From the IMG/VR virus record IMGVR_UViG_3300047476_001337, positions 10,296 through 74,295 of that record: 64,000 nt of DNA. One strand, 5' to 3'. Within the stretch, counting starts at the first letter, position 1; every line of letters starts with the position of its first letter. This document shows positions 3,273 through 33,093 of this stretch, piece by piece. A program made the position numbers and the translations under genes. This DNA is from a virus. Taxonomy: Duplodnaviria > Heunggongvirae > Uroviricota > Caudoviricetes. The notes beneath the pieces are model-generated. The model was not told the DNA's origin. It saw only the letters and a program-made list of their open reading frames with translations, and did not search any database.

Positions 3273-3509
3273 TTAGTGTAAAAAAGTTACATTTCCCGTT
3301 ATTGTTCTTGTTTCTTTTGTTTTTGGGTTTTGTAGTAATGCAGAACAATCTAAACCTATAAAAATAATTTGGTATGTCACCATTTTTGAAAATGGTAAAT
3401 ACCAAAACAAAAAACTTCTTTTTTCTTTAATTTGGATTAAATCACCAAATTTATACCATACACCTTCGTGTTCAATATGTGGTGTCATTTGTTCTTTATT
3501 GTTTTCCAT
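3273..3509 (-). CDS. hypothetical protein (79 aa). I moved the start to the ATG that follows the -7 box.
   Basis: The track ORF 3273..3581 reads through the promoter cassette (which translates as ...YLCGME...). TATCTTTG at 3514..3521 abuts the ATG at 3509. Confidence 0.5.
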   Translation of the reverse strand: MENNKEQMTPHIEHEGVWYKFGDLIQIKEKRSFLFWYLPFSKMVTYQIIFIGLDCSALLQNPKTKETRTITGNVTFLH

Positions 3510-3539
3510 ACCACAAAGATACAAAGAATATTTGAAATA

Positions 3540-3580
3540 AAAAAGGGGGTAGGGGGATTCGGGAACCGTTTCCGGCATCA
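3540..3580 (-). terminator. conserved intergenic hairpin/terminator cassette (copy 1 of 3) followed by a promoter
   Basis: Minus-sense TGATGCCGG...CCCCTACCCCCTTTTTTATTT directly after the stop of 3587..3895; near-identical flanks recur at 9422..9461 and 9980..10020 on the plus strand. Confidence 0.5.
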
Positions 3581-3586
3581 TTCAAT

Positions 3587-3895
3587 TCATGAACATTGCT
3601 TGTTATAAATCTTAACAAGTTGTTTCCCAAATAAATCAACAAGGAAATGATAAAGGCCATCGCTATGTTTCCCTAATGGTATGCCATAATCCTCAACATA
3701 TCTATAGGCGAGCAAATCACAGGCTTCAGAAACAAAATCACCAGCAGAATTAAACTCACAAGGAATCAACTCATCTTCAACAAGGCTCTTCATATCATCT
3801 TCCATTCTATCAAAGTCCAACCTCCTACGAGAGGTGGTGGATAGTTGTTCCATCAATGCGGTTCTATACTGTGATTCGGTGATAACGTATTTCAT
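3587..3895 (-). CDS. hypothetical protein carrying the N-terminal leader MKYVITESQY
   Basis: I placed the start at the ATG giving MKYVITESQ. This leader motif is shared with 12503..12865, 33141..33425 and 56326..57459. Confidence 0.5.
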   Translation of the reverse strand: MKYVITESQYRTALMEQLSTTSRRRLDFDRMEDDMKSLVEDELIPCEFNSAGDFVSEACDLLAYRYVEDYGIPLGKHSDGLYHFLVDLFGKQLVKIYNKQCS

Positions 3896-3919
3896 ACAAT
3901 CATAAATACCCCCACACAC

Positions 3920-4216
3920 TTATTTAATTTCGAGGTCAATAACTTTATTATTCATTTTTTCCCAATGTGATACAACCTTTGTTCTAATCAAATACTTTAT
4001 AATGGGAATTATCTCATTAAGCTTTTTGCAATAATCTGGTGATACCCAATAAAAATCATACGTCAGAATAAACCATTCAGATACATCACGAGTCATCCTA
4101 TTCAAATACCCTTCCACATGTTGTGAAACAAGATAATATGGATGGTCTATTAACTTTTGGGTTATGTAATCATCTATCTGAACAGCTCTTCTTTTTATAT
4201 ACGGTGGGATAATCAT
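3920..4216 (-). CDS. hypothetical protein
   Basis: Track ORF 3920..4306, trimmed to an internal Met to avoid an 89-nt overlap with 4218..4607; the start is uncertain. Confidence 0.4.
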   Translation of the reverse strand: MIIPPYIKRRAVQIDDYITQKLIDHPYYLVSQHVEGYLNRMTRDVSEWFILTYDFYWVSPDYCKKLNEIIPIIKYLIRTKVVSHWEKMNNKVIDLEIK

Positions 4217-4217
4217 A

Positions 4218-4607
4218 TTAATCACGTAATGGAGATGGAATAATTCTAAATTTCTTATATGAATGGTTAATTTCCAACCAAAGTCCAAAATACTTAACGG
4301 TATCAAAACTGTTCTTCAAACCCAAGGTCCTTTCAAGACCATGAAAAATATCGTCCTTAACCAAAAATATTTGCTGGGGAACCATTACCGCACCAACAAG
4401 CGTATTATCATCCCTCATTAAATAAATGTGGTCATTATCAATACCTGCCAAATAAAGGGTGTATTTACCAAATCTCTTGGTTATATAATGTAACGATATT
4501 TCCATTAACTTATCCAAATGAATAACCCTATCTCCACCTAACTTATGTCTTTCTATATAAACCAAAGCATCCCCCAATGTGACTGGACCATTTTTATTTT
4601 TTTTCAT
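4218..4607 (-). CDS. small-paralogue family member F (129 aa) with an internal LGGDRVIHL motif
   Basis: Shares the [KR]x[KR]MGGDxGIHL motif with five tandem ORFs downstream. Confidence 0.5.
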   Translation of the reverse strand: MKKNKNGPVTLGDALVYIERHKLGGDRVIHLDKLMEISLHYITKRFGKYTLYLAGIDNDHIYLMRDDNTLVGAVMVPQQIFLVKDDIFHGLERTLGLKNSFDTVKYFGLWLEINHSYKKFRIIPSPLRD

Positions 4608-4608
4608 A

Positions 4609-4785
4609 TTACAATTTATCGTCCTCTTTAATTATAGGGTCTTTTTTTAAGAACTCCAAATGAATCCCCTTGTCTTCCCCCATTCTAGCTCTTGATATTA
4701 CAAGTTCTAGTTTTTTCTTATATTCTTCAGTATAATCATACTGGCCAAAAGTATAATATTCAGTTTCCATTTTTTCAGTTTCCAT
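4609..4785 (-). CDS. small-paralogue family member A (59 aa; METEKMETEYY...RARMGEDKGIHLEFLKK...)
   Basis: Hand-translated; it falls below the 60-aa track cutoff. Conserved MGEDKGIHL motif; the reading frame was checked. Confidence 0.45.
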   Translation of the reverse strand: METEKMETEYYTFGQYDYTEEYKKKLELVISRARMGEDKGIHLEFLKKDPIIKEDDKL

Positions 4786-4945
4786 TTTCTATATCGATGT
4801 CCAAGTTTATTTGGGGGGTGTTTTTTAAGAATCCCAAATGAATACCTTTGTCTTCCCCCATAATAGCTCTTGACATTATAAAGGTAAGTTCTTCCAAAAA
4901 CTCGTCATCAGGTTTATAATCATTCAAAGTATATTCAGTACCCAT
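4775..4945 (-). CDS. small-paralogue family member B (57 aa; MGTEYTLNDYKPDDEF...AIMGEDKGIHLGFLKN...)
   Basis: Hand-translated; conserved motif. Its start lies 10 nt downstream of the palindrome AATTTTCCAGAAAATT. Confidence 0.45.
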   Translation of the reverse strand: MGTEYTLNDYKPDDEFLEELTFIMSRAIMGEDKGIHLGFLKNTPQINLDIDIENGN

Positions 4946-4954
4946 TTTTTCAAA

Positions 4955-4970
4955 AATTTTCCAGAAAATT
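4955..4970. promoter_or_regulatory. imperfect palindrome AATTTTC-CA-GAAAATT, copy 1, just upstream of a start codon
   Basis: The same 16-mer with a shared A-rich flank recurs at 6477..6492 upstream of the HNH endonuclease gene. Confidence 0.4.
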
Positions 4971-4975
4971 CTTTT

Positions 4976-5113
4976 TTACAATTTGACCCCTTCTTGAATT
5001 AGGGGGTCTTGTTCTGGGGAAACAACTAAATGAATCCCCTTATCTCCACCCATCTTATCTCTTAAAATTGATGTACGTATTTTTTCAATAGCTTCATCAT
5101 GTAGATTCCTCAT
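4976..5113 (-). CDS. small-paralogue family member C (45 aa; MRNLHDEAIEKIRTSILRDKMGGDKGIHLVV...)
   Basis: Hand-translated; conserved motif. Confidence 0.4.
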   Translation of the reverse strand: MRNLHDEAIEKIRTSILRDKMGGDKGIHLVVSPEQDPLIQEGVKL

Positions 5114-5331
5114 TTCGTTGAGGATTGTTTCAAAGTCCATTTCCCCCATAATAATATCTTCTTATCCTTTAACTTGTATTCCAAATGAATTCCTTCATCT
5201 CCTCCCATCTTTTTTCTTTCACGGAGATTCTCCATAGCTTCCATGATTTCTAAAATAGGATAAGATTCATGGGTGACAATATTGTATGCCCCAAACATAC
5301 CATTGTTTATTATCATATCTTTAGTTTCCAT
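5110..5331 (-). CDS. small-paralogue family member D (73 aa; ...RERKKMGGDEGIHLEYKLKDKK...)
   Basis: Track ORF; conserved motif. Confidence 0.5.
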   Translation of the reverse strand: METKDMIINNGMFGAYNIVTHESYPILEIMEAMENLRERKKMGGDEGIHLEYKLKDKKILLWGKWTLKQSSTK

Positions 5332-5500
5332 CTTCAGTATTTTTAACTATTGAATGAATACCCTTGTCTCCCCCCATCTTAAATCTAATTCGTCCAGTAT
5401 ACAGGTCATCATATATTTGAATATCTGATTCACCAAACATATTAATATCAAAGTCACCAAACATATGATAATCTACAAAAACTTGATTATTAGGTTCCAT
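5321..5500 (-). CDS. small-paralogue family member E (60 aa; MEPNNQVF...RFKMGGDKGIHSIVKN...)
   Basis: I moved the start to the ATG that follows the -7 box TACCTTTG (5504..5511). Confidence 0.5.
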   Translation of the reverse strand: MEPNNQVFVDYHMFGDFDINMFGESDIQIYDDLYTGRIRFKMGGDKGIHSIVKNTEDGN

Positions 5501-5520
5501 CTCACAAAGGTACAACAAAA

Positions 5521-5544
5521 AACCCACACTACCAAATGTGGGGG
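5521..5544. terminator. bidirectional intrinsic terminator hairpin CCCACA...TGTGGG flanked by an A-run and a T-run
   Basis: 6-bp perfect stem between the HNH gene and paralogue E. Confidence 0.5.
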
Positions 5545-5625
5545 TCTTTTTTACCGTTCAGGAATATTGACAATAATATACCCCCCATTTATAACCTATA
5601 TTCCCGTTCAGGAATATGTGGGTCT

Positions 5626-6438
5626 TTAAGAGTGGGGGGTTCTCTCAAGAAACTTACCAAATCTAACCACCAATTCATCAGGTATTTTATCCGATAGTAT
5701 TTTGTTGTTTTTAGATTGATTCTCACTTGCCCACAAAGGTTGATAATTTGTATGATGACAAAGTTCAATTACTTCATCTTCATTAACCCCCAATGAAACA
5801 GGAACAATGTGGTCCAAATGCCATGCACCATAATTATCCCAAGACATTCCATCAATAAATTGTTTTTCAATGTATTCTTTGAATTCATAAAAATTACATC
5901 CCAATATATCAATGGTTTTACTTTTCTTTCTCATGCTTACTACATCGACTCTCTTGATGTAGTTTTTAATTAATACCCTAACTCTACAGGTTAATTTGAA
6001 TAAAGGGTCATTATTACTTCGTTCTTGTTTTTGTCTATATTCATTTTTTCTATTTTCATCAGACTTCCTAAATTTACGACTGTTTTTTGTCTGACAGTTT
6101 CTACAGTAGTAATTCAACCCCATAGGTCTATTTTTAGACTTATTGAAGTTTGTTTCATTAGAGTCCAACCATAAGTTACAACGAGAACATTTTTTTTGGT
6201 TTGTTTTCAAATTGTATGTCTCATAACACTTATGACATAATGATTCATTTTTACAAGAAATATCCAACTTACCTTTTGATTGAGTAATGGTGTGACCACA
6301 GAATCTACAAGATTTTGTAAATTGATGTCTTGGATATTTTGTATTATTATCAGGATAATATCCCTCGTATTTTGTTACAATAAATGAACCACATGTTTTA
6401 CCAATATACTGTTTGATGATTTCTCCACGTTGTTTCAT
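5626..6438 (-). mobile_element. HNH homing endonuclease with multiple CxxC zinc-finger pairs (271 aa from the ATG; the track used a TTG at 6447)
   Basis: C-terminal HNH signature AWHLDHIVPVS...NYQPLWASENQSKNNK and many CxxC pairs; flanked on both sides by G/C-run hairpin-rich sequence. Confidence 0.8.
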
Positions 6439-6476
6439 TTTAACCAATATAGTAAAGGGACCTCATTTTTCCAAAA

Positions 6477-6492
6477 AATTTTCCAGAAAATT
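6477..6492. promoter_or_regulatory. imperfect palindrome AATTTTCCAGAAAATT, copy 2, upstream of the HNH gene start
   Basis: Identical 16-mer to 4955..4970. Confidence 0.4.
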
Positions 6493-6606
6493 TCATCGTT
6501 AGTATTGTACCCCCTTTTCGACCTGTCAAAGTGTCATATAGGGGGGGATACGGGAGGGGGGACCCCCACCATGGGGGGTATGCCATACTGCCCCCCGAGG
6601 GTATAG

Positions 6607-6687
6607 TGTGGATAACTTTATTCCCCCTCCCCCTATGACACCATGTCATGTGGATAACTTATGGTCCCCCTCATATGGTGTGTATAA
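6607..6687. promoter_or_regulatory. DnaA-box-like cluster I: TGTGGATAA at 6607..6615 and 6649..6657, plus a one-mismatch TGTGTATAA at 6679..6687
   Basis: Perfect matches to the bacterial DnaA-box consensus TTATCCACA/TGTGGATAA. They lie next to G7/G6/C6 homopolymer runs (6541..6600) that are atypical for this AT-rich sequence. Confidence 0.45.
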
Positions 6688-6715
6688 CTATATGACATTA
6701 ATTTGACGTGGGGGT

Positions 6716-7252
6716 TTGGTAGTGTCAAATAGATTACCTATCTTTGTATTATGGTTCAGTCATATACTAACCATGGGCGTGGGGGCTTATGTGGTCACGG
6801 GAGAGTATACTCCGACCTGCCTTATATTTTTTTATAAGGGGTTTGGAAATGTCAAAGGTATGTTGTACCTTTGTAGTGTTATGAAGTTGATTGATTCCCC
6901 CACTCATATTAAAAGACTTAACAAGGTCATGAGGAGTAAGCTCATTGACTGTGATGTTAAATCCTTTTACTATGAATCCCTTAAGGGTTACTACTCATTA
7001 CATGTTAAGAGGGGGAATAACTATACACCCCCATCATTGTATCTTAAGTTTAATGTCACTGAGTGTCTATATAAAAACCATTATTGGGATAATAAATTAT
7101 TATCCATGTATAGTGGAAATCAAAGAATCAGGAATATTAACATATCCATTAGATATCCTATTACCGTGGAAGGTTGTCATATGTTCCTTAAACACTTTGG
7201 TATTAAGCACTATGAACTTAACAAGACTATGATTGTTTGGCCCACTCGTTAA
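6716..7252 (+). CDS. doubtful plus-strand ORF (TTG start) inside the DnaA-box-flanked segment
   Basis: Only support is ORF length. A plus-strand TATCTTTG box at 6739..6746 abuts an out-of-frame ATG at 6751, giving a 28-aa ORF. Confidence 0.2.
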   Translation: MVVSNRLPIFVLWFSHILTMGVGAYVVTGEYTPTCLIFFYKGFGNVKGMLYLCSVMKLIDSPTHIKRLNKVMRSKLIDCDVKSFYYESLKGYYSLHVKRGNNYTPPSLYLKFNVTECLYKNHYWDNKLLSMYSGNQRIRNINISIRYPITVEGCHMFLKHFGIKHYELNKTMIVWPTR

Positions 7253-7640
7253 TGGTCTCATACGCCATTGTCGATAGTGTCACCCTTGTAATGTTGAAAT
7301 CCCCCTCGTTAAGATGAAAGTACTTGTGGAGTATCTCATGTAGTGGCTTAAGGTCACAGTCCACCATCATCCATACGTTCTGACTTAGGGGTTTCCTACT
7401 GAACCCTGTCTTACCCTTATGGAACCATATGATTGCCTCAGGTAATACATTCCCCCTGTTTGGGACATATCTTAGTATTATCCCATTGGATGACTCCTCT
7501 ATCTTGGGGGTAAAGTATTTCAGTACAATTAAACGTATGTTATCGTCCGTTAGTTTGGATGGTCCATATACATCACCTCCCATTAATTGAATCTCACTCA
7601 TATTGTTGATAAATATAATGTTATCCACACTTTTGTCCAT
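7227..7640 (-). CDS. hypothetical protein (137 aa)
   Basis: ORF; a DnaA-box 9-mer (7621..7629) lies inside its first codons. Confidence 0.45.
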   Translation of the reverse strand: MDKSVDNIIFINNMSEIQLMGGDVYGPSKLTDDNIRLIVLKYFTPKIEESSNGIILRYVPNRGNVLPEAIIWFHKGKTGFSRKPLSQNVWMMVDCDLKPLHEILHKYFHLNEGDFNITRVTLSTMAYETINEWAKQS

Positions 7641-7686
7641 ACTGACACCCTGTCATGTGGATAAAAAAAATTGGGATTGTGGATAA
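7621..7686. promoter_or_regulatory. DnaA-box-like cluster II: TTATCCACA at 7621..7629, TGTGGATAA at 7656..7664 and 7678..7686
   Basis: Three perfect 9-mers within 66 bp in both orientations. The 22-bp direct repeat TGACACCNTGTCATGTGGATAA occurs at 6636..6657 and 7643..7664. Confidence 0.45.
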
Positions 7687-8306
7687 CTTTGGGGGTAAAA
7701 ATTTGGAATTGTCAAAATGTCAGGTCCCTCTTTCGCATGGGGATAATGCCTTTACGGGGTTTTCATTTCCCCCACTATCTCCCACAGGGATATAATTGTA
7801 TAGTAGAATTCCCCCTGACGCTATCAGGAGAACCAATTTTATCCCCCTCACAGTAGCAAGAAGACCACTTTTTTTACTATATATAAAACCCAGAGAATAA
7901 TAGTTGTTATGAGTGCCTAGTCGGGTGGACACGTAGTGTCTTAGAATATTCCTTCAAGGAGGACGAAGTCTATTACTAAGATGACCCCTAATATAGACCA
8001 ATATATTCCTGTCCCCTTAGTTTATATGGATATTACATGATGTTAAATATATGTGGGAGAAAGTGGGAGTTATAGTTTATATCTAATTAGTCAGGTGAAA
8101 CCTGACCATTGTGATATACATAATAATAACTCCGTAATCTCCCCCACAATCTATGTCTACTCTATATGTCTCTACATATAATCTTTCATGTTCCTTAATG
8201 ATTATATCTGATTACATATAATATCAGACAACTATATAACATCTCACTGTATCCATCTCCTTTAGTGGGGGACAAACTACAAGTGGGGGTTCTTGTGGTG
8301 GGGGAA

Positions 8307-8798
8307 TTAGTTTTCCGTAATGGCCGTTACGGTAATCGGTGTTACCATAGGTTCTAAGAAATTACATAAGTCATTTACGTAATTAACATACTCAGGGTCC
8401 TTTAGACTACCATCTATAAGTTCTATCCTCTTAGGGTCTTCTAAGTACCATTGTGCAAGTTTGAGTGACTTAACTGTAGTATCATATACATCACCAAACT
8501 CATGGTCATCATTGTACCATCCTGTTTGAGTTTTATACTTAGTAAACTCTATAGAGAAGTTTAGATTTGAACCATCATTATAATGTTCAGGTATATAATG
8601 AATATACACACCATTATCCTCTAATGTCTTAAGGGAACTTAATACAAGGTTATCATATATCTCAGCCATTATCTCTCTTGTAAGATGTCCTGCAGTCTTG
8701 GTATTGTCATTTGCCCATCTTATAATAATGTCTTCTACCTTGGAGTATAATTCTTTGTACATAGTGTTAATAATAATGAATTCCCCCCACATAATCAA
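8307..8798 (-). CDS. hypothetical protein (163 aa)
   Basis: Long ORF followed downstream by a 666-bp ORF-free hairpin-rich stretch (7641..8306). Confidence 0.55.
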   Translation of the reverse strand: MIMWGEFIIINTMYKELYSKVEDIIIRWANDNTKTAGHLTREIMAEIYDNLVLSSLKTLEDNGVYIHYIPEHYNDGSNLNFSIEFTKYKTQTGWYNDDHEFGDVYDTTVKSLKLAQWYLEDPKRIELIDGSLKDPEYVNYVNDLCNFLEPMVTPITVTAITEN

Positions 8799-8987
8799 TA
8801 TAAGGTTGTGGACTTATAATGGACTATTATTAGGCTGTAGACTTATAGTGATACGATATGATACGGAAATATCCGATGGTGATACTATAAACAGAATAAA
8901 GTAAAAGTATGAACGAATGTGTGGAGTGATAACGACACACCCTGAGTGAATAGTTTTACTTTATGATGTGTAGTAATATTTACTATT

Positions 8988-9416
8988 ATGTCTAATCCTG
9001 ATTTATTTGAATATATCCCGAAATTTATACTATCTAATTATGACATGAATGTGGATGTACGAATTAAAAACGCTCCTAATAATAATAAAACTTTCATTTA
9101 TACATGGATTATTTTTACACCAAAAAAGATTAATTCTTTAACACCTCATGAGACAAACTTTTTTGCTAAGTACGATTGGATTCATCCTAAGGATGGAAAA
9201 GAAGAACTTTCTTACGATGATGCAATTTATATTAGAAAAGATGATATGCCGATTATAAAATATGTTGCAGGCGAATATTACTTAGATGAATTCTGTGAAA
9301 AGATGGCTAAAGACTTAACATTACAAACCATTGAGAAAATCAAATCAGGTGAAGAACTTCCGAAAATACCATTAGGTGATTTAGTTTACTTTAACTACGG
9401 TAAAAATAACTTTTGA
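8988..9416 (+). CDS. hypothetical protein (142 aa)
   Basis: First gene of a three-gene plus-strand island; followed by conserved terminator cassette copy 2. Confidence 0.6.
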   Translation: MSNPDLFEYIPKFILSNYDMNVDVRIKNAPNNNKTFIYTWIIFTPKKINSLTPHETNFFAKYDWIHPKDGKEELSYDDAIYIRKDDMPIIKYVAGEYYLDEFCEKMAKDLTLQTIEKIKSGEELPKIPLGDLVYFNYGKNNF

Positions 9417-9421
9417 TTAGG

Positions 9422-9461
9422 TCTCTGATGCCGGGGACTGATTATCCCCTACCCCCTTTTT
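9422..9461 (+). terminator. conserved hairpin/terminator cassette (copy 2), GCCGGGGACTGATTATCCCCTACCCCC followed by a T-run
   Basis: Lies directly after a stop codon, with a GGGG/CCCC stem and TTTTTT; copies at 9980..10020 and, in minus orientation, 3540..3580. Confidence 0.55.
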
Positions 9462-9480
9462 TATTTGAAATATTATCATT

Positions 9481-9488
9481 ACCTTTGT
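9481..9488 (+). promoter_or_regulatory. -7 promoter box TACCTTTG 4 nt upstream of the ATG at 9493
   Basis: Plus-strand TACCTTTGTGGAATGG, the same cassette architecture as the minus-strand genes. Confidence 0.5.
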
Positions 9489-9492
9489 GGAA

Positions 9493-9974
9493 TGGAATTG
9501 TCTAATTTATCATTTGAGGAACTTATTGAGTTAAGAAGTAAGATTAACGATATGATTTATTCATATGAAGATGGATATCTCTATATCTGTAATGTTCGTT
9601 CTTATGGTAGGAATTGGACTGAGAGGGTTAAAAATACTCTTGAGTTGGAAGAGTTATGTAATAAATACGATGGTCAAGATGGTATTGTGGATGTTTATTC
9701 TACCAACCCTAATTTAGATTTTATGCATAACTACGGTGCTTTGATGTATATTGAATCACAAGAAGATTATGCTAATTGGAATGGGTATAACAAATTAAAC
9801 AGTCTTATACCCCAAATTAAGGAGGAATTGGATGAATGGGATAATAGAAATAATGTTCCGTTTAATCAACGTCCATTATTTGAACCAACTTATACTCGTG
9901 GAGATTTGGCAAACTATGAACTTCAGTTGGCTGTGTATGACATGTCTTTCGTACCACCGAAACCATATCATTAA
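9493..9974 (+). CDS. hypothetical protein (160 aa). I moved the start to the ATG that follows the -7 box.
   Basis: The track ORF 9465.. begins with the translated promoter cassette (...YLCGME...). Confidence 0.6.
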
Positions 9975-9979
9975 ACATA

Positions 9980-10020
9980 TCTCTGATGCCGGGGACTGAT
10001 TAACCCCAACCCCTTTTATT
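9980..10020 (+). terminator. conserved hairpin/terminator cassette (copy 3)
   Basis: TCTCTGATGCCGGGGACTGATTAACCCCAACCCCTTTTATT directly after the stop codon. Confidence 0.55.
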
Positions 10021-10032
10021 ATATTTATTGTT

Positions 10033-10338
10033 ATGGAAGTATCTGAAAAAATGATTAAGAAAGTATTAGAACACTTGGTTTCACCTAAGTGGAATGGTAT
10101 TGTGGAATATAATATTGAACCTTCTACACACGATGATACAGGTGTTGTGTACTACATGATAGATGTTATATTTGATATTAATAAGTATTGGTCAATATAT
10201 CACGCAGGTAAATATGATTATCCAGTAGAAATGGATATAGAGATTGAAACTGATGTTAGAAACGCGATGAAGTATTTGGGTATTAACACAACATTTGTAA
10301 CAATGTATGTTAGGGATGAAGATGGAATTTGGAAATAA
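10033..10338 (+). CDS. hypothetical protein (101 aa)
   Basis: Third gene of the plus-strand island. Confidence 0.55.
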   Translation: MEVSEKMIKKVLEHLVSPKWNGIVEYNIEPSTHDDTGVVYYMIDVIFDINKYWSIYHAGKYDYPVEMDIEIETDVRNAMKYLGINTTFVTMYVRDEDGIWK

Positions 10339-10353
10339 TTAATAGAATTACCA

Positions 10354-10692
10354 TTATGGACAAACATATTGATGCATAAGACGTAATTTCTCACCGTATT
10401 TGTCTCTAGCATATTTCTCCATCATCTTATACGCTTCCCCCCACTCAGGTGAACTATTACTAACATCACTAAAGTAATCCCAATAGATTGTATCTAATGT
10501 TTTGGATATTGTTGCATCAATAAAATCATCCTCATCAATTTCACACATAGAATATTGGTGATTGACTTCATCTGCAGATACAAAGATTAACTCATCAACA
10601 TTACGTATTCTTCTTTGTGCGGCAACCAAAAGATTGGCCTCATTTAATCCCATCATCTCTTGTATTCTATTTACCTGCTCTTGTAAGTTCAT
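10354..10692 (-). CDS. hypothetical protein (112 aa)
   Basis: ORF whose stop overlaps the start of the upstream gene by 4 nt. Confidence 0.5.
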   Translation of the reverse strand: MNLQEQVNRIQEMMGLNEANLLVAAQRRIRNVDELIFVSADEVNHQYSMCEIDEDDFIDATISKTLDTIYWDYFSDVSNSSPEWGEAYKMMEKYARDKYGEKLRLMHQYVCP

Positions 10693-11420
10693 TTCTTTTT
10701 CTTCACACAGTTAGGGTATCTTTTACCGAACATTGTCTTCATACCTTTTTGAGTATAACCTGCCCAACATCTTTCAGTTAGTTCACCCTCTTTAATTTCT
10801 TTGAGTCTATTCTTTGGCATTGATTTGATGATTGAGAAGTTATACCCCCAAGTATTTCCCTCATCACCAATACTCTTTATCCTTAACGGACGGCTATTCA
10901 TTGTACCTGAGAATGTATCTTCAGGATATTCATTAATACTATCCAATTTATTTTTTACCTCATCCCAATCAACATCAACCCAATCACCATACTTCGTTAT
11001 CATTTCATCAAATGACTTAAAACCTTCGGCAAATCCACGCCAATCTCTATTACCATAAGGTTTATCGTGTTTAACAAAGATATAGGTTTCACCTGTTGAA
11101 CTTCTTTCCTCTTCTTCCGCATCTCTTTGTCTTTTCTCAAAATATTGTGTTAACTCTTCACTGTAATTGTCTGTTATATACTCTTTAATCTCATCCCAAA
11201 CTTTATAATATATTGTATCATCATATTCAAAATTGTCTGGCATAACTTTATACATCACTTGTGTGATTGCTGTCAACACACTATCTTCTATTGGTTGATT
11301 TTTTTTGAAAGCCCCCATCTTATATTGGTTTAATATCTTTTCAATATCCCCAAATTTTAACCTACGTCTTATTGATGGTGTAAGTTCCTCTCTTAATATT
11401 CTTCTAATCAGGTCTTTCAT
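10689..11420 (-). CDS. MKDLIRRILREE-leader family protein 1 (243 aa)
   Basis: Shares the N-terminal MKDLIRRILREE with the two upstream paralogues; the C-terminal part is unrelated. Confidence 0.6.
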   Translation of the reverse strand: MKDLIRRILREELTPSIRRRLKFGDIEKILNQYKMGAFKKNQPIEDSVLTAITQVMYKVMPDNFEYDDTIYYKVWDEIKEYITDNYSEELTQYFEKRQRDAEEEERSSTGETYIFVKHDKPYGNRDWRGFAEGFKSFDEMITKYGDWVDVDWDEVKNKLDSINEYPEDTFSGTMNSRPLRIKSIGDEGNTWGYNFSIIKSMPKNRLKEIKEGELTERCWAGYTQKGMKTMFGKRYPNCVKKKK

Positions 11421-11422
11421 AA

Positions 11423-11965
11423 TTAATAAAAAGTCTTTACACCCATGTATTTTGATAAATTGTATTTATCTATTATCTGTTTGAAGATTTGTTGTCTGTA
11501 TCTTTTACCTAATGTGTTTCGTTTGTTAATATGAACATAACCAAACCCTGAATCACCACTTCTCCCAACAACTTTGTAATAGTTTTGGTTATGAAGTTTT
11601 GTCGGTACTAAGTTAGCTGTGAACGAGTATAAATAGAGATTCTTGGAACCAAATCTAAATTTACCCAATTCTTTTTCAACCGAATTATACAAAAATTGCG
11701 ATTTTTTATCTTCAAACCCAAGTTCATCAACTAACGCCTTATGTAAATATAAATCCATTCCGTCCGTTGACAAGTAAGCAAGTGGAGTTGTTGTTTCTTC
11801 ACTAAACTTAATTATATCACCGTCATAAAGAATTTTTATTAAACTATCTACCCCACCCATAACTTTGGCAGCAGTTTCTAATCCTGATTTTTTTATCATG
11901 GATTTAATGGCGTCTTTTTTAGATTCAGTTTCCTCTCTTAATATTCTTCTAATCAAATCTTTCAT
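11423..11965 (-). CDS. MKDLIRRILREE-leader family protein 2 (180 aa), a tandem paralogue of 11968..12501
   Basis: Near-identical to the next gene over its whole length; a ~545-bp tandem DNA duplication is visible. Confidence 0.6.
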   Translation of the reverse strand: MKDLIRRILREETESKKDAIKSMIKKSGLETAAKVMGGVDSLIKILYDGDIIKFSEETTTPLAYLSTDGMDLYLHKALVDELGFEDKKSQFLYNSVEKELGKFRFGSKNLYLYSFTANLVPTKLHNQNYYKVVGRSGDSGFGYVHINKRNTLGKRYRQQIFKQIIDKYNLSKYMGVKTFY

Positions 11966-11967
11966 AA

Positions 11968-12501
11968 TTAATAAAAAGTCTTTACACCCATGTATTTCGA
12001 TAAATTGTATTTATCTATTATCTGTTTGAAGATTTGTTGTCTATATCTTAGACCTAATATATTTTTTTTATTAATAAAACTATAACCAAATCCTGAATCA
12101 CCACTTGTTCCAACGACTCTATAATATTTTTGGTCATGAAGTCTTGTTGGAGTTAATGTGGCGCTGAAAGCATATTTCTGACCATTCTTGGAACCATAAG
12201 CGAATTTACCTAATTCTTTTTCAATACGGCTACCCCATGGCATATCTTTTAGTCCAAGTTCATTAACTAATGCCTCGTGTAAATATAAATTCATTTTATC
12301 CAAAGACATATAAGCAAGTGGAGTATTTGTTTCTTCACTAAACTTAATCATATCCCCATCATAAAGAATTTTTATTAAACTATCTACCCCACCCATAACT
12401 TTAGCAGCAGTTTCTAATCCTGATTTCTTTATCAGGGATTTAATAGCATCTTTTTTGAATTCAGTCTCTTCTCTTAATATTCTTCTAATTAAATCTTTCA
12501 T
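11968..12501 (-). CDS. MKDLIRRILREE-leader family protein 3 (start placed at MKDLIRR)
   Basis: Paralogue of 11423..11965; start placed at the conserved leader. Confidence 0.6.
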   Translation of the reverse strand: MKDLIRRILREETEFKKDAIKSLIKKSGLETAAKVMGGVDSLIKILYDGDMIKFSEETNTPLAYMSLDKMNLYLHEALVNELGLKDMPWGSRIEKELGKFAYGSKNGQKYAFSATLTPTRLHDQKYYRVVGTSGDSGFGYSFINKKNILGLRYRQQIFKQIIDKYNLSKYMGVKTFY

Positions 12502-12502
12502 A

Positions 12503-12865
12503 TTAGCAATAATGTTCATCTTTTATATCCTGAATCAAATGACCGCCAGTAAATTTATCGGAATACCTATTGTTAAAATAATCAATTATTACCTTAGTAA
12601 TTTCTTTTTTAGACAAACCGAAAGACCTTCCATATTGTGTTAATCGTTTCCAATCACCACAACTTGCAACCCAAAGATTCCCCCACCTATTCTTATGGAA
12701 AGATAATGACTTACTATTAGGTGGGTACCACCTAACATAACCTTCACCATCATTTTCAACAACAAAGTCTTTTAACACTCTATCAAAAAAATGACTCAAG
12801 ACATTGTAATGATTGTCCTCAGTCATTAAATTAGAAAGTTGGCTCTCTGTGATAATAAATCTCAT
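12503..12865 (-). CDS. hypothetical protein with the N-terminal leader MRFIITESQL
   Basis: Shares the FI(I/V)(T/S)E(S/T)Q(L/Y) leader with three other proteins in the window. Confidence 0.55.
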   Translation of the reverse strand: MRFIITESQLSNLMTEDNHYNVLSHFFDRVLKDFVVENDGEGYVRWYPPNSKSLSFHKNRWGNLWVASCGDWKRLTQYGRSFGLSKKEITKVIIDYFNNRYSDKFTGGHLIQDIKDEHYC

Positions 12866-12881
12866 ATATCAATAAATATAA

Positions 12882-13157
12882 CTACATTGATTTGAGGATT
12901 ACTTCCAACATCTGAATCTTATCTTTATCTTCCTTTGTTTTCTTTGGTTTACTCTTGAGGTATGCAATCGCATCCATAATCTCCTTTTGTTTGTCGTTAA
13001 CTACAGGAGCAGGTTTGCTTACGGTCTTTCTTACGCCAGCAGTTTTGGCGGTGATTGCTTTTGGTCTCTCACCGTACAACACATCCATAACCATCTTAGC
13101 TTTTTTCTCATCCTTGGTGATGGCTAGTATCAATAGGTATGTAAGTATCTTATCCAT
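12882..13157 (-). CDS. hypothetical protein (92 aa). I moved the start to the ATG after the TATATTTG box.
   Basis: -7 box at 13162..13169; the track ORF begins with the promoter-derived ...YICGMD... Confidence 0.5.
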   Translation of the reverse strand: MDKILTYLLILAITKDEKKAKMVMDVLYGERPKAITAKTAGVRKTVSKPAPVVNDKQKEIMDAIAYLKSKPKKTKEDKDKIQMLEVILKSM

Positions 13158-13176
13158 ACCACAAATATAATGAAAA

Positions 13177-13198
13177 ACCCCCACGTTTCCATGAGGGT
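13177..13198 (-). terminator. intrinsic terminator of the CCCCCAC/GTGAGGG family (ACCCCCACgtttccaTGAGGGT plus a T-run)
   Basis: Hairpin directly after the stop of 13210..13749. Confidence 0.55.
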
Positions 13199-13209
13199 CT
13201 CAGACTTTA

Positions 13210-13781: not shown

Positions 13782-14525
13782 TTATTTATATTTCCAAATA
13801 AAACCACCCGATGTTTTTTGTTTATGTCTCAAACATCCATTTATTGATTTGTAGCATAAATTTAATTCTTTCGATGCTTTTAACGCGTTAACCCATTCTT
13901 TTATAAATTTACCATCTAATGAGTATTGTAAAACAGGTTTGGATTTTACATGAGGTAATCCAGTACGGGTCAGGTATCTTTTATAATTGTTATTATCACC
14001 TTTCGCAGAATCGCTCATCTTGTTTTTAGTTTCAAGTGATTTTGATTTACCTTTTGAAGATTCGCTCATTTTCTTTTTTGTTTCATTAGTAACTTTTTTA
14101 CCAATTGCGGATTTACTCATCTTCAATTTGGTTTCCTCATTGTGTTTTTTACCGTACCAAAACGGTTTTAACACACCATTTACAACCAATTCATCGTCTT
14201 TAGATATTCTAAAAACTTTACCATTTTCATCAACATATTGCCCTAACCCTACAGTTTTGAACCCAACACCTGGAATGTGAGCGTTTTTATTTAATTTATC
14301 GGAACGATGAGTGATAATCAATTTTCGTTCATAACTAATACATTGTTCTCTATCTTGAAAATCAAATTTGATTATAGTTTTTACCAATGTTTTTTTATCA
14401 GGTTTCCAAGATTTCATAGAACCCAAATAATAAATGTCTTTATTGGGTTCAACTTTGGAGGTTCTGCTTCCGAAGTAATACTCCCCTGTTTCAGGTAATT
14501 CTAATTTATAAACATAATGATACAT
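13782..14525 (-). mobile_element. GIY-YIG homing endonuclease (Seg/I-TevI-like) with three NUMOD3 repeats and a C-terminal NUMOD1/IENR1 HTH
   Basis: N-terminal YVYKL...GEYYFGS (GIY-YIG), repeats ETKLKMSKSAIGKK / TKKKMSESSKGKS / ETKNKMSDSAKG, and a C-terminal VLQYSLDGKFIKEW...GGFIWKY. I placed the start at MYHYVYKL; the track N-terminus is hydrophobic junk. Confidence 0.8.
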
Positions 14526-14571
14526 ACACAATAAATATATCATGACATTCAAAAAAACAATTTTAAGAAAA

Positions 14572-15180
14572 TTAAAGTGAATTAGGGTAATATAATAAAG
14601 TGGGATTCTTTTTAGCAATATCAGGCACATCACCTTGTAATGACATAATCTTATTGAACTCCATTACGTCAAATCTACCTGTGATTAAATGAAAACCATT
14701 TTTGGTTGGGATAGTTGCGTATATTTTATTTCCTTCGGGTCTACATTCATTAACAAGCCTCATAATCCTTAAAAGGACTTCCTCATCTTTCATATCAACA
14801 TCAACAATCCATCTCTTCTCTTGGGTTTTGATTTGACCAACAACCGAATCAAATAAGCCTTTTTGGTTAGTTTGACCATTTTGTAGTCTTTGAGCTAATT
14901 CAACCATCATATTAAAAGATACATCTTTGTGGTTTTGTTTTTGAACATGAATGTAAGCACGAGCTTTGAACATCTCACAAAGTTGTTTAATCTCATCATA
15001 CCTACGCTCAAGATGTCCAATACTTTCAATACAATAAGTCTTAATTGTTCTTACCGATTGGTGGTTATCTCTTTCACCCTCAGGTTGGTCTTTCTTTCTC
15101 TTGAATACATAAAGCATGTAGAAGTCACCTTTATCAGTGAAGTTCAAAAGTGGTTTAATTATTTCTAAGTTATCAATCAT
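14572..15180 (-). CDS. hypothetical protein (202 aa)
   Basis: Long ORF with no recognisable motif. Confidence 0.55.
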   Translation of the reverse strand: MIDNLEIIKPLLNFTDKGDFYMLYVFKRKKDQPEGERDNHQSVRTIKTYCIESIGHLERRYDEIKQLCEMFKARAYIHVQKQNHKDVSFNMMVELAQRLQNGQTNQKGLFDSVVGQIKTQEKRWIVDVDMKDEEVLLRIMRLVNECRPEGNKIYATIPTKNGFHLITGRFDVMEFNKIMSLQGDVPDIAKKNPTLLYYPNSL

Positions 15181-16557: not shown

Positions 16558-17307
16558 TTATAGTTCTGTTGTTGGTTTAAGCCATAATCCCTTCCCAAAC
16601 ATAATTTCTAATATCTTTGGGTTAGTATATTTAATTTTTTCAAATAAGTCCAATGTTTTCAATGTATCATGTTTCATCATCTTGAATATCTCATCTCTAA
16701 TTCTTTCCTGTGATACAACTTGTTCAAGTTTGTTAACAATATCATCAACATGACATGTTTCCCATATTCTTGGTGAAATGTCAAATCCTTTGGTAATTGA
16801 GAATCTAAACGCTCTCAACAATCTCAATGGGTCATCCAACATGGTTGTCCATGCGGTTTGTGGTGTCATAAGAATTTTGTTCTCCAAAGCCCACATACCA
16901 TCAAACATATCAATAATATTACCATCTTCGTCTTTTGCCAATGCGTTTAAGGTAAAATCCCTACGAATCAAATCGTCTCTCAACGTGCCAGGAACCACCA
17001 TTGGTTGTCTTGTATCAGGAATGTATCCAACTTCTTTACGAGCCATTACAAAGTCCGCTACACCTTGATATTTGTGGTCTTTTGGAAACTTTGCTCTGAT
17101 GGTAAAACAATCAGGAGTAATCAAGAAGATTTCAAATCCTTTACTTCTTAAGTATGTCTCAAGGATTGAGAACATGGTGTCCGCATAGGTGATTTTTTCT
17201 AATAAACCTTCATCAGGAACCGCAACGTAATCAATGTCTTTGGATTTCAATCCAAGAAGTTCGTCTCTGACGCAACCACCTACTTCATAAAACTTAAATT
17301 CTTCCAT
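16558..17307 (-). CDS. cca: tRNA nucleotidyltransferase (CCA-adding enzyme, minimal head domain)
   Basis: GGCVRDELLG...DIDY, RRDFTLNA and DDPLRLLRAFRF match the polymerase-beta-type CCA enzyme head domain. Confidence 0.85.
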   Translation of the reverse strand: MEEFKFYEVGGCVRDELLGLKSKDIDYVAVPDEGLLEKITYADTMFSILETYLRSKGFEIFLITPDCFTIRAKFPKDHKYQGVADFVMARKEVGYIPDTRQPMVVPGTLRDDLIRRDFTLNALAKDEDGNIIDMFDGMWALENKILMTPQTAWTTMLDDPLRLLRAFRFSITKGFDISPRIWETCHVDDIVNKLEQVVSQERIRDEIFKMMKHDTLKTLDLFEKIKYTNPKILEIMFGKGLWLKPTTEL

Positions 17308-33034: not shown

Positions 33035-33039
33035 ATCTT

Positions 33040-33047
33040 CAAAGATA
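33040..33047 (-). promoter_or_regulatory. -7 promoter box TATCTTTG just upstream of the adhesin ATG
   Basis: Minus-sense TATCTTTGAAGATATGAAAAGA. Confidence 0.5.
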
Positions 33048-33093
33048 GACAAAATTTTTGACAAAATTGCATTATGACTGTAAAAAAATAAAA

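What the first reader, a model, noticed from the sequence alone, without database searches (positions are those of the whole stretch)
6440..8306. Five perfect DnaA-box 9-mers, G/C homopolymer tracts and 22-bp direct repeats around a 1-kb segment: candidate origin or inserted element
TGTGGATAA/TTATCCACA occurs at 6607, 6649, 7621, 7656 and 7678, with a one-mismatch copy at 6679. Only about 0.5 perfect matches are expected by chance in 64 kb, and here five cluster within ~1.1 kb. They flank a segment bounded by the direct repeat TGACACC(A/C)TGTCATGTGGATAA (6636..6657 and 7643..7664). G7, G6 and C6 runs occur at 6541..6600, and a further 666-bp ORF-free hairpin-rich stretch runs from 7641 to 8306. 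The whole ~1.9 kb contains only one confident small gene, so either a DnaA-dependent origin or a foreign insertion is plausible.
Basis: seen in the sequence. Interest (0 to 1): 0.65.

Follow-up and report, generated by a model that had tools for sequence, protein, structure and literature searches.

The report
Conserved DnaA-box hub in jumbo phages
The five DnaA-box 9-mers are real and belong to a mostly non-coding element that is conserved in dozens of uncultivated lake jumbo phages; it most likely recruits the host replication initiator DnaA, as an origin or an early-infection control site, and it is not a foreign insertion.

Summary
Five perfect TTATCCACA/TGTGGATAA lie at 6607, 6649, 7621, 7656 and 7678 and nowhere else in 64 kb. 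The 22-bp repeat, the G/C runs and the ORF-poor stretch are also real.

The region is a conserved hub, not an insertion. About 55 sequence variants from lake metagenomes keep two box clusters 0.83-1.64 kb apart. Each cluster is joined to a 13-bp TGWCA-N3-TGWCA dyad. They bracket a variable cassette of small genes plus a small-RNA gene under Flavobacterium-type sigma-A promoters.

The left cluster abuts a G-tract element, the only G-quadruplex motif in the window. That element occurs in 71 distinct variants, many without the right-hand module. Perfect boxes lie only on its right (54 versus 0). In six lineages it sits where gene orientation diverges and GC skew changes sign.

The right cluster adjoins a 0.6-kb ORF-free segment whose hairpins are kept by compensatory changes but show no strand bias.

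Best reading (about 0.4): a bipartite origin that recruits DnaA. Main rival (about 0.3): a T5-like early control region with the same box variants. No DnaA-trio, unwinding element, skew switch or initiator gene was found in this window. Function is untested.

The parts
6444..6475 (-). Leftward promoter-like site P0. On the - strand it reads TTTG, then 20 nt, then TATATTGG. The predicted start is about 6439, next to the ATG at 6438.
   Evidence: Read from the sequence. The sigma-A -7 consensus TAnnTTTG at -12..-5 is from PMC9723704. The equivalent A/T-rich TTTTCC..AAAA segment is conserved in relatives. In 21 of 22 loci the genes on this side run leftward. Promoter activity is inferred.
6479..6514 (.). 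Conserved upstream arm of the G-tract module (TTTTCCAGAAAATTTC...TATTGTACCCCC).
   Evidence: Conserved in alignments of 37 variants and in further lineages found through the G-tract pattern.
6524..6536 (.). TGWCA-N3-TGWCA dyad 1 (TGTCAAAGTGTCA).
   Evidence: Only four such dyads exist in the 64 kb, all in this locus. The site is conserved in relatives.
6541..6600 (+). G-tract element (GGGGGGGATACGGGAGGGGGG...GGGGGG...CCCCCC). It is the only G-quadruplex-capable motif in the window.
   Evidence: A G4 regular-expression scan of both strands finds one hit, at 6541. 31 of 37 variants keep a canonical G4 motif, always on this strand. Alignment. The pattern is found in 89 viral stretches.
6607..6615 (-). 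Perfect DnaA box (TGTGGATAACTTT on the + strand).
   Evidence: The position is conserved in L001.
6636..6648 (.). Dyad 2 (TGACACCATGTCA).
   Evidence: (D9). Conserved next to boxes in relatives.
6649..6657 (-). Perfect DnaA box.
   Evidence: Conserved in L001.
6679..6687 (-). One-mismatch box TTATACACA.
   Evidence: L001 has TTATCCACC at the same place.
6711..6746 (+). Promoter P1 of Flavobacterium sigma-A type (TTTG 6715-6718, 20 nt, TATCTTTG 6739-6746).
   Evidence: (D1). Consensus from PMC9723704. Conserved in 33 variants.
6751..6838 (+). Candidate small RNA of about 85 nt ending in the hairpin CCTTATA-T6-TATAAGG (6818-6838).
   Evidence: The cassette of promoter, about 85 nt and hairpin is conserved in 33 variants of three sequence types. 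There is no Rfam family: only a chance-level hit at E 1.5. Transcription is inferred.
6838..6873 (+). Promoter P2 of sigma-A type (TTTG 6842-6845, 20 nt, TACCTTTG 6866-6873).
   Evidence: (D1). It lies 6 nt upstream of the ATG at 6884.
6884..7252 (+). Gene Y, 122 aa, unknown function.
   Evidence: ORF list. The stretch aligns with L001, and my manual translation of L001 gives a homologous reading frame. No Pfam or PHROG family.
7227..7601 (-). Gene X, 124 aa (137 aa if it starts at 7640). It is the first leftward gene after the right box cluster in all relatives.
7604..7612 (-). One-mismatch box TTATCAACA.
   Evidence: This is the same variant that alternates with TTATCCACA in relatives and is listed for T5.
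7621..7629 (+). Perfect DnaA box ('box C' position).
   Evidence: Conserved position in relatives.
7643..7655 (.). Dyad 3 (TGACACCCTGTCA).
   Evidence: Conserved in nearly all variants.
7656..7664 (-). Perfect DnaA box, specific to this sub-lineage.
   Evidence: Absent in L001 and present in only 6 close variants, the window included.
7678..7686 (-). Perfect DnaA box ('box A').
   Evidence: At this position 34 variants have TTATCCACA, 31 TTATCAACA, 2 TTACCCACA and 2 TTATTAACA.
7691..7725 (.). Invariant 'anchor' GGGGGTAAAAATTTGGAATTGTCAAAATGTCAGG. It includes dyad 4 (7710-7722). It shares TTTGG-N3-TGTCAAA with P1 and P2 but has no -7 box.
   Evidence: (D10). It is also intact in L007-L009, which were found through a neighbouring protein.
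7726..8306 (.). ORF-free, hairpin- and palindrome-dense conserved segment. It contains GGGGATAAT(G/C)CC with a TTATCCCCA-type box at 7738-7746.
   Evidence: Conserved in 40 distinct sequences. Hairpins are kept by double substitutions (pairs 450-462). Folding z-scores are -2.8 (+ strand) and -3.8 (- strand). There is no G-U versus A-C asymmetry. No Rfam hit.

Best explanation
The stretch is a conserved cis-acting hub of an uncultivated family of AT-rich jumbo phages, probably infecting Bacteroidota. It has two modules. Each joins high-affinity DnaA boxes (GTTATCCACA type) to a TGWCA-N3-TGWCA dyad. The left module is fused to a G-tract element capable of forming a G-quadruplex. The right module is fused to a 0.6-kb palindrome-dense ORF-free segment. 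Between them lie an exchangeable cassette of two small genes and a small-RNA gene under host sigma-A-type promoters.

Most likely mechanism: host DnaA binds both box clusters and bridges them, looping out about 1 kb. A second factor occupies the dyads. The complex marks a bipartite origin where phage replication starts, helped by transcription from the flanking host-type promoters.

Shown here: the sequences, their conservation, their enrichment and their polarity. Inferred: DnaA binding, looping and origin activity.
For: - Five perfect boxes within 1.08 kb and none elsewhere in the window.
- Box positions are conserved in relatives whose neighbouring proteins are only 25-77% identical.
- Over 70 distinct loci (398 kb), perfect boxes occur at 3.68 per kb inside the two cluster zones and 0.017 per kb outside.
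- The second cluster is always 0.97-1.45 kb from the anchor. The anchor-to-G-tract distance is 0.83-1.64 kb in 37 variants. I recall bipartite oriC of Bacillus subtilis and Helicobacter pylori having this geometry.
- Boxes change within the DnaA-box family: TTATCAACA, TTATTAACA, TTTTCCACA, TTATTCACA.
- Among 71 distinct G-tract elements, 38 have at least one perfect box in the 400 nt to the right and none has one in the 400 nt to the left (54 versus 0 boxes; background 0.016 per 400 nt).
- In six lineages the element lies between leftward and rightward gene blocks with a GC-skew sign change. In those whose sequence I read there, the box is followed by a very AT-rich stretch (L111, L150).
- Genes on both sides and between the modules differ between relatives while the non-coding modules persist. 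This points to an essential cis function.
- The ORF-free segment has strand-symmetric hairpins, which fits a DNA-level role.
Against: - Within this window, GC skew is negative on both sides and cumulative skew has no minimum at the locus. Genes on both sides run the same way.
- There is no DnaA-trio array and no outstanding AT-rich repeat element next to the boxes: the maximum is 80-82% AT in a 67% AT genome.
- No replication or Rep-like gene lies nearby. Gene X has no Rep or HTH fold.
- About a third of lineages have no perfect box: 19 of 54 in the right cluster and 13 of 37 in the left. 9 of 54 have no TTWTNCACA box at all in the right cluster.
- T5-like phages carry a similar conserved DnaA-box region although their origins map elsewhere.
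- The skew and orientation switch in sister lineages could reflect divergent early operons only.
Confidence: 0.4

Rival explanations
1. It is an early-infection control region analogous to the untranslated repeat regions of the T5 first-step-transfer DNA. DnaA, possibly membrane-bound, and a dyad-binding factor dock on the incoming DNA. They gate the host-RNA-polymerase promoters (P0, P1, P2 and the gene X promoter) or DNA entry, with no role in replication.
For: - According to the T5 preprint, T5-like phages have 8 DnaA/DnaA* boxes in two modules of a palindrome-rich untranslated region. That region is more conserved than the neighbouring ORFs, the modules are a variable distance apart with small pre-early genes between them, and an HNH gene is inserted nearby.
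- The T5 variants are the same as here: TTATCCACA, TTATCAACA, TTATTAACA, TTATCCCCA. The T5 sequence reads TGTTGATAAGTCTGTGGATAACTTAAA, the same flank as window 6649.
- Here the boxes lie 58-142 nt upstream of two paralogous promoter-like elements, and the locus is dense in host-type promoters.
- The cassette genes are small, fast-evolving and unannotated, with the weak fold hits including anti-CRISPR proteins. This is typical of early accessory genes.
Against: - The number and perfection of the boxes, and roughly 1 kb of conserved non-coding DNA, exceed what regulating exchangeable accessory genes would need.
- The detailed T5 architecture is absent: box pairs 3 bp apart, a 52-bp spacer, inverted-repeat modules.
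- There is no sequence similarity to any GenBank phage.
- The role of the boxes in T5 is itself an untested proposal.
Confidence: 0.3
2. The 9-mers are sites for a phage-encoded DNA-binding protein with the consensus TGTKRATAAC. Their identity to the DnaA box is coincidental or mimicry.
For: - Many lineages have only TGTTAATAAC or TGTTGATAA sites, which break the conserved C6 of TTWTNCACA.
- The boxes always occur with a second, clearly phage-specific motif, the TGWCA dyad.
Against: - The commonest form is exactly the universal high-affinity box, with the same G flank that I recall for E. coli R1 and R4.
- The same variant set appears in unrelated T5-like phages of E. coli, where the only shared partner is host DnaA.
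- No candidate binding protein is conserved at the locus. Gene X has no DNA-binding fold.
Confidence: 0.1
3. The clusters act as a DnaA sink in the manner of datA. As phage copy number rises they titrate host DnaA and shut down host chromosome initiation.
For: There are clusters of 2-5 high-affinity boxes per genome, conserved across lineages.
Against: This does not explain the fixed polarity relative to the G-tract element, the dyads, the constant bipartite spacing or the structured segment. Boxes are lost entirely in some lineages.
Confidence: 0.08
4. The segment 6658-7642 is a foreign insertion and the 22-bp direct repeats are its target-site duplication.
For: - The 21/22 direct repeat flanks about 1 kb.
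- The gene content of the enclosed cassette differs between lineages.
Against: - Each repeat is a dyad plus a box and is present as a conserved unit in all relatives.
- No relative has the modules fused. The spacing is 0.83-1.64 kb in 37 variants.
- Gene X is conserved at its place across groups.
- No transposase or integrase gene is present.
Confidence: 0.02
5. This rival is not exclusive of the others. The ORF-free segment 7726-8306 encodes a large structured non-coding RNA, as the same window does for GOLLD.
For: - It is conserved in 40 distinct sequences, with conserved islands separated by variable hairpins.
- Whole hairpins are replaced by compensatory substitutions (pairs 450-462).
- 93.9% of cells are paired against 40-53% in the slid controls.
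- Folding z-scores are -2.8 and -3.8.
- The phage carries a GOLLD RNA elsewhere.
Against: - There is no strand signal. In helices predicted on both strands, G-U and A-C cells are equal: 26 versus 23, 5 versus 10, and 36 versus 23.
- The better-folding strand varies: the - strand in 26 of 40 sequences.
- Most pairs never vary within a group.
- No Rfam family matches.
- No promoter or terminator could be assigned unambiguously.
Confidence: 0.3

Closest known systems
[quoted passage not shown]
   Same: - A large untranslated region rich in palindromes and more conserved than the neighbouring ORFs.
- Two DnaA-box modules a variable distance apart, with small early genes between them.
- The same box variants: TTATCCACA, TTATCAACA, TTATTAACA, TTATCCCCA.
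- The same flank, AAGTTATCCACA.
- A homing-type HNH gene next to it.
   Different: - No sequence homology.
- The T5 boxes come in pairs 3 bp apart inside inverted repeats with a 52-bp spacer. Here single boxes abut TGWCA dyads and the modules are direct paralogues.
- T5 has no G-tract element.
- The T5 region lies in the terminal repeat. The position here is unknown.
- The host phylum differs.
Bipartite chromosomal origins (Bacillus subtilis incAB/incC, Helicobacter pylori oriC1/oriC2); from my own knowledge
   Same: Two clusters of consensus DnaA boxes are separated by roughly 1 kb of coding DNA, which would allow DnaA-mediated looping.
   Different: - The intervening gene is not dnaA.
- No DnaA-trio or AT-rich unwinding element is found next to a cluster in this window.
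- This is a phage genome.
Iteron-type origins with DnaA boxes (P1 oriR, RK2 oriV); from my own knowledge
   Same: DnaA boxes sit at the borders of a region that also holds repeats for a second factor and a GC-rich stretch.
   Different: - There is no tandem iteron array, only four 13-bp dyads in two pairs 1 kb apart.
- There is no adjacent Rep gene.
E. coli datA and DARS loci; from my own knowledge
   Same: Non-origin clusters of DnaA boxes that act on DnaA itself.
   Different: These are chromosomal. They have no dyads, G-tract or structured segment. An IHF site was not looked for here.
Transcription-primed origins with G-rich elements (ColE1 RNA II, T4 oriF/oriG, mitochondrial CSB II); from my own knowledge
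   Same: A promoter lies next to a G-run element that can form a G-quadruplex or a stable RNA-DNA hybrid. Here P1, with its short transcript, lies about 150 nt from the G-tract.
   Different: - No promoter was found that reads into the G-tract so as to make G-rich RNA.
- In distant relatives the small-RNA cassette is separated from the G-tract by a gene.

Membership tests
oriC-type DnaA-dependent origin (basal unwinding system) | A cluster of consensus DnaA boxes | tested here: met
   There are 5 perfect and 3 one-mismatch boxes in 1.14 kb. The clusters are conserved and 220-fold enriched in relatives.
oriC-type DnaA-dependent origin (basal unwinding system) | A DnaA-trio array next to a box | tested here: not met
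   No run of three or more TAR/YTA trios lies near any box. The only hits are at 7970 and 8121, far from the boxes.
oriC-type DnaA-dependent origin (basal unwinding system) | An AT-rich unwinding element with repeats beside the boxes | tested here: inconclusive
   The richest 40-nt windows are 80-82% AT in a genome that is about 67% AT, and none adjoins a box with repeats. In sister lineages L111 and L150 the box is followed by a very AT-rich stretch.
oriC-type DnaA-dependent origin (basal unwinding system) | A GC-skew inflection or gene-orientation switch at the site | tested here: inconclusive
   It is not seen in this window. It is seen at the homologous G-tract element in 6 of 22 testable loci. 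In phages, skew follows transcription.
oriC-type DnaA-dependent origin (basal unwinding system) | Replication actually starts there | not testable with these tools
   This needs marker-frequency sequencing, 2D gels or an autonomous-replication assay.
Iteron plasmid/phage origin (P1 oriR, RK2 oriV) | A tandem array of 17-22-bp iterons | tested here: not met
   Only four 13-bp TGWCA-N3-TGWCA dyads are present, in two pairs 1 kb apart.
Iteron plasmid/phage origin (P1 oriR, RK2 oriV) | An adjacent initiator (Rep) gene | tested here: not met
Bipartite oriC (B. subtilis / H. pylori type) | Two DnaA-box clusters separated by about 1 kb | tested here: met
   The clusters lie at 6607-6687 and 7604-7686. 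The spacing is conserved in relatives.
Bipartite oriC (B. subtilis / H. pylori type) | dnaA lies between the clusters | tested here: not met
   The intervening genes X and Y are unannotated small proteins.
T5-like first-step-transfer repeat region | An untranslated, palindrome-rich region more conserved than the neighbouring ORFs | tested here: met
   The non-coding modules are kept while the flanking and internal genes differ.
T5-like first-step-transfer repeat region | A mix of consensus and C6-variant DnaA boxes (TTATCAACA, TTATTAACA) | tested here: met
   Searches compared.
T5-like first-step-transfer repeat region | Box pairs 3 bp apart inside inverted-repeat modules with a 52-bp spacer | tested here: not met
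   In this window adjacent boxes in the clusters are separated by 7-13 nt or by a dyad, and the two modules are direct paralogues. A pair 3 bp apart occurs only in the distant lineage L111.
T5-like first-step-transfer repeat region | Located in the long terminal repeat at the end that enters first | not testable with these tools
   The genome ends are unknown. Contig ends cluster near the G-tract (23 of 65 contigs), but this is expected from assembly breaks at G-runs and at the variable cassette.
T5-like first-step-transfer repeat region | Sequence homology to Tequintavirus | tested here: not met
   There is no blastn match to any of 50,697 phage records.
Known RNA family (Rfam 15) for 6751-6838 or 7726-8306 | A covariance-model match | tested here: not met
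   The only hit is a chance-level RT-6 match at E 1.5. At gathering thresholds the window yields only GOLLD, at 50994-51414.

The most novel reading that the evidence does not exclude
A G-quadruplex-capable G-tract element followed by DnaA boxes is the shared start site of replication, or of DNA entry control, for a very large and entirely uncultivated radiation of AT-rich jumbo phages of Bacteroidota. Its convergence with the DnaA-box modules of T5-like phages would mean that capture of the host initiator DnaA by incoming phage DNA is a general strategy, so far overlooked, of large virulent phages. The adjoining 0.6-kb segment would be a new DNA-level or RNA-level structured element.
Probability: 0.2. 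Interest if true: 0.85.

Novelty: new variant of a known kind. Interest (0 to 1): 0.66.

Why it matters
Origins and early control sites of jumbo phages are almost unknown, and none is described for phages of Bacteroidota. This locus gives a concrete, conserved and testable candidate. It offers defined DnaA boxes, a second dyad motif, a unique G-quadruplex motif and a structured segment, all shared by dozens of lake-phage lineages.

If DnaA binds here, large virulent phages would be shown to depend on the host initiator or to exploit it. That would also give meaning to the unexplained DnaA boxes of T5. The conserved 26-31-nt anchor and the G-tract pattern are also practical probes for pulling related phages out of metagenomes.

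Tried and rejected
- **Similarity to GenBank phages.** Megablast and blastn of the region, and of the G-tract module, found no match.
- **RNA scans.** Rfam found only GOLLD elsewhere in the window, and there are no tRNAs.
- **Protein families.** Pfam and PHROGs on all local ORFs and 20 neighbours gave no replication genes. The hits were an endonuclease VII/HNH-like protein, a NUMOD endonuclease, a poly(A) polymerase-type nucleotidyltransferase (PolyA_pol head domain) and a dTDP-4-dehydrorhamnose epimerase. The first rightward genes in sister lineages have no family either.
- **Strand of the ORF-free segment.** Folding energies, alignment folds on both strands and G-U versus A-C counts did not resolve it.
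- **Alignment fold of all 40 sequences.** It failed because the MAFFT alignment was too gappy, so I used subgroups instead.
- **Genome termini from contig ends.** Ends cluster near the G-tract, but G-runs and the variable cassette break assemblies, so I draw no conclusion.
- **Host or prophage copies.** The anchor has no hit in 185,579 species genomes. The G-tract pattern gives mostly chance hits in GC-rich genomes. One 13-kb contig of a Bacteroidota MAG carries the real module.
- **HNH gene as an insertion relative to L001.** I dropped this idea because the whole left flank differs between the two phages.
- **The anchor as a third sigma-A promoter.** It shares the -33 part with P1 and P2 but has no -7 box in any lineage, so this stays unresolved.
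Full report
**1. The observation**

The window holds exactly five perfect TTATCCACA/TGTGGATAA. They lie at 6607, 6649, 7656 and 7678 (- strand) and 7621 (+ strand). Shuffles give a mean of 1.39 per 64 kb, and only 1 of 100 shuffles reached five. All five fall within 1.08 kb.

One-mismatch copies lie at 6679 (TTATACACA), 7604 (TTATCAACA) and 7738 (TTATCCCCA). One-mismatch copies are not enriched over the window as a whole: 26 found against 32 expected.

The 22-bp repeat is 21/22 identical (D9). The stretch 7641-8306 holds only ORFs of 70 aa or less.

**2. Context**

The window is about 33% GC, and nearly all ORFs are on the - strand. Two large proteins carry type IX secretion sorting domains. 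Relatives are IMG/VR contigs of 233-295 kb. No GenBank phage matches at the DNA level.

This is therefore an uncultivated jumbo phage, probably of Bacteroidota. It may belong to the 'moraphages' described from aquatic metagenomes, some of which also encode glutamine synthetase (PMC12619734; window 59027-60235). That membership is not tested.

**3. Anatomy on the + strand**

- A leftward sigma-A-like promoter P0 (6444-6475) lies next to the ATG of an endonuclease VII/HNH-like gene.
- A conserved arm follows (6479-6514), then dyad TGTCAAAGTGTCA (6524-6536).
- The G-tract element spans 6541-6600.
- Next come box 6607, a C-tract, dyad TGACACCATGTCA (6636-6648) fused to box 6649, and box* 6679.
- Promoter P1 has TTTG, 20 nt, TATCTTTG. 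It drives an ~85-nt candidate small RNA that ends in CCTTATA-T6-TATAAGG.
- Promoter P2 has TTTG, 20 nt, TACCTTTG.
- Gene Y (6884-7252, +) converges on gene X (7227-7601, -).
- Then come box* 7604, box 7621, dyad TGACACCCTGTCA (7643-7655) fused to box 7656, and box 7678.
- An invariant 'anchor' (7691-7725) contains the fourth dyad.
- A 0.6-kb ORF-free segment runs to 8306.

These features are read. The promoter assignment rests on the Flavobacterium sigma-A -7 box TAnnTTTG at -12..-5 (PMC9723704). The pattern TTTG-N19-21-TAnnTTTG occurs 6 times per strand in the window, against roughly 0.7-0.9 expected by my estimate.

The left and right modules are parallel copies with the order dyad, box, spacer, box, then GGGGG..TTTGG-N3-TGTCAAA.

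**4. Comparative evidence for the two-cluster hub**

The closest relatives (L001-L004) align over the whole 1.9 kb. Four of the five perfect boxes and the imperfect one are in place.

Scans for the anchor found 12 viral and 73 metagenome stretches, mostly from lakes. These give about 55 distinct versions of the box region.

All versions share the following order, read on the - strand:
- the anchor;
- box A (TTATCCACA in 34 variants, TTATCAACA in 31, TTACCCACA in 2, TTATTAACA in 2);
- a T-rich spacer;
- the dyad;
- box B (TGTGGAWAA);
- box C (TGTGGATAA, TGTTAATAA or TGTGAATAA);
- gene X.

A second cluster of perfect boxes lies 0.97-1.45 kb away in most loci that reach that far, and almost none occur elsewhere. 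Over 70 distinct loci, perfect boxes occur at 3.68 per kb inside the two zones and 0.017 per kb outside.

The anchor-to-G-tract distance is 0.83-1.64 kb in all 37 variants. No relative lacks the intervening segment, so the insertion reading fails.

The content does vary. Gene X is conserved: 25-32% identity between groups with a fixed core. Its partners differ, and so do the genes outside both modules. The non-coding modules are the conserved core of a hot spot for gene exchange.

One caveat applies. 19 of 54 right-cluster variants and 13 of 37 left-cluster variants have no perfect box, and some have only TGTTAATAAC-type sites.

**5. The G-tract element is much more widespread**

It is the only G-quadruplex motif on either strand of the window. 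31 of 37 variants keep a canonical motif, always on the same strand.

The pattern GGGGGGATACGGGNGGG hits 89 viral stretches. Nearly all are 27-37% GC, many come from contigs of 200-360 kb, and most lack the anchor. All share the same upstream arm and the sequence TATATAAGGGGGGATACGGGAGG.

Among 71 distinct elements, 38 have at least one perfect box within 400 nt to the right and none has one within 400 nt to the left. The totals are 54 boxes against 0, with a background of 0.016 per 400 nt.

Genes to the left run leftward in 21 of 22 testable loci. In six lineages the genes to the right run rightward and GC skew changes sign at the element. In those six the element is followed by zero to three boxes and then sigma-A-type promoters; L111 and L150 also show a very AT-rich stretch after the box.

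**6. The ORF-free segment**

Forty distinct homologues, 49-94% identical to the window, show conserved islands separated by variable hairpins. Whole hairpins are exchanged by double substitutions between groups (pairs 450-462).

Within one group, 93.9% of cells pair against 40-53% in the slid controls. Nine pairs show double changes, though most pairs never vary.

Neither strand is favoured:
- Window folding energy is -162.9 kcal/mol (z -2.8) on the + strand and -175.7 kcal/mol (z -3.8) on the - strand.
- The - strand folds better in 26 of 40 sequences.
- Helices predicted on both strands have equal G-U and A-C cells.

No Rfam family matches. I read this as a structured element whose level of action, DNA or RNA, is open.

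**7. Proteins**

**8. Interpretation**

The 9-mer, its G flank and its variants point to host DnaA as the binding partner.

Several findings favour an essential cis function, and an origin is the simplest one. They are the conservation of about 1 kb of non-coding DNA amid changing genes, the strict polarity of the boxes next to the G-tract, the bipartite spacing, and the divergent, skew-switching setting in sister lineages.

Against this, the window itself shows no skew inflection, no DnaA-trio or clear unwinding element and no initiator gene.

The closest described thing is the T5 first-step-transfer repeat region. It has the same box variants and the same flank but is not the T5 origin, and its own function is only proposed.

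I therefore rate a DnaA-recruiting bipartite origin at about 0.4 and a T5-like early control region at about 0.3. The remaining rivals are a phage-encoded binding protein (0.1), a DnaA sink (0.08) and an insertion (0.02).

**9. Novelty**

DnaA-box clusters in phage DNA are known from P1, lambda and T5. Three things appear undescribed, since they have no match in GenBank phages or Rfam: the combination with a conserved G-quadruplex motif, the dyad partner motif and the structured segment. Their spread through uncultivated jumbo phages also appears undescribed.

Noticed in passing
window 50994-51414 (-): A full-length GOLLD RNA (RF02032, 298 bits, E 3e-84). There is no tRNA gene anywhere in the 64 kb.
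   Followed up: no
window 5626-6438 (-): An endonuclease VII/HNH-like gene (phrog_1035, E 1.5e-20) starts right at the leftward promoter of the hub. It is probably a free-standing homing endonuclease. The whole left flank differs from L001, so I cannot call it a simple insertion.
   Followed up: partly
window 13782-14633 (-): A second homing-endonuclease-like gene with NUMOD3 and NUMOD1 motifs.
   Followed up: no
window 28499-33064 (-) and 36206-37960 (-): Large proteins carry C-terminal type IX secretion sorting domains (CHU_C, Por_Secre_tail) and a PKD domain. This points to a Bacteroidota host.
   Followed up: partly
window 16558-17307, 42276-43805, 48828-49868, 59027-60235 (all -): Auxiliary genes: a poly(A) polymerase-type nucleotidyltransferase (PolyA_pol head domain), a NAMPT/NAPRTase, a T4-type RNA ligase and a glutamine-synthetase-like protein. 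Together with GOLLD these suggest an RNA-repair and NAD-salvage theme.
   Followed up: no
window 6751-6838 (+); for example L007 about 11700-11850 (-): A candidate small-RNA gene of about 85 nt with a perfect sigma-A-type promoter and an A/T-only hairpin. It is conserved as a cassette in 33 variants, but in three unrelated-looking sequence types.
   Followed up: partly
window 3500-13200: Runs of five or more G or C are concentrated here. About 50 of 72 run positions fall in 15% of the window, in coding as well as non-coding DNA.
   Followed up: no
window 10354-10692 (-); L001 11123 and 11629; L013 9848-10192; L150: Families of small paralogous proteins share N-termini MNLQE.I.RI.EMMG and MKIIISESQ..RL. 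They are scattered on both sides of the hub in many relatives.
   Followed up: no
L007 8060-8130 and 10420-10490; L013 about 7380-7450: A repeated intergenic element, TTCACTCACT-hairpin-TTCGTTCAYTCAT, with compensatory changes in the hairpin. It looks like a terminator and precedes the ORF-free segment in distant relatives.
   Followed up: no
window 8318-8335; L007 8144-8161; L008 about 6403-6420: The hairpin CCGTAACGGCCATTACGG (on the - strand in the window) lies inside the 3' end of ORF 8307-8798 in the window but in non-coding DNA in relatives. The end of that ORF may be mis-called.
   Followed up: no
L111 about 1050-1120; L112 and L128: In distant lineages the G-tract element is followed by two perfect boxes. 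In L111 they are 3 bp apart (TGTGGATAACTATGTGGATAAC), as in T5, and are followed by a long A/T run. In L112 and L128 they form a convergent pair, TTATCCACA-N6-TGTGGATAA.
   Followed up: partly
L190 (a 13-kb contig of Bacteroidota MAG ELA565), position 10 onward: This contig starts inside the G-tract element and carries the box and promoter module. It is probably a phage contig binned with a Bacteroidota genome, which gives weak support for the host assignment.
   Followed up: no
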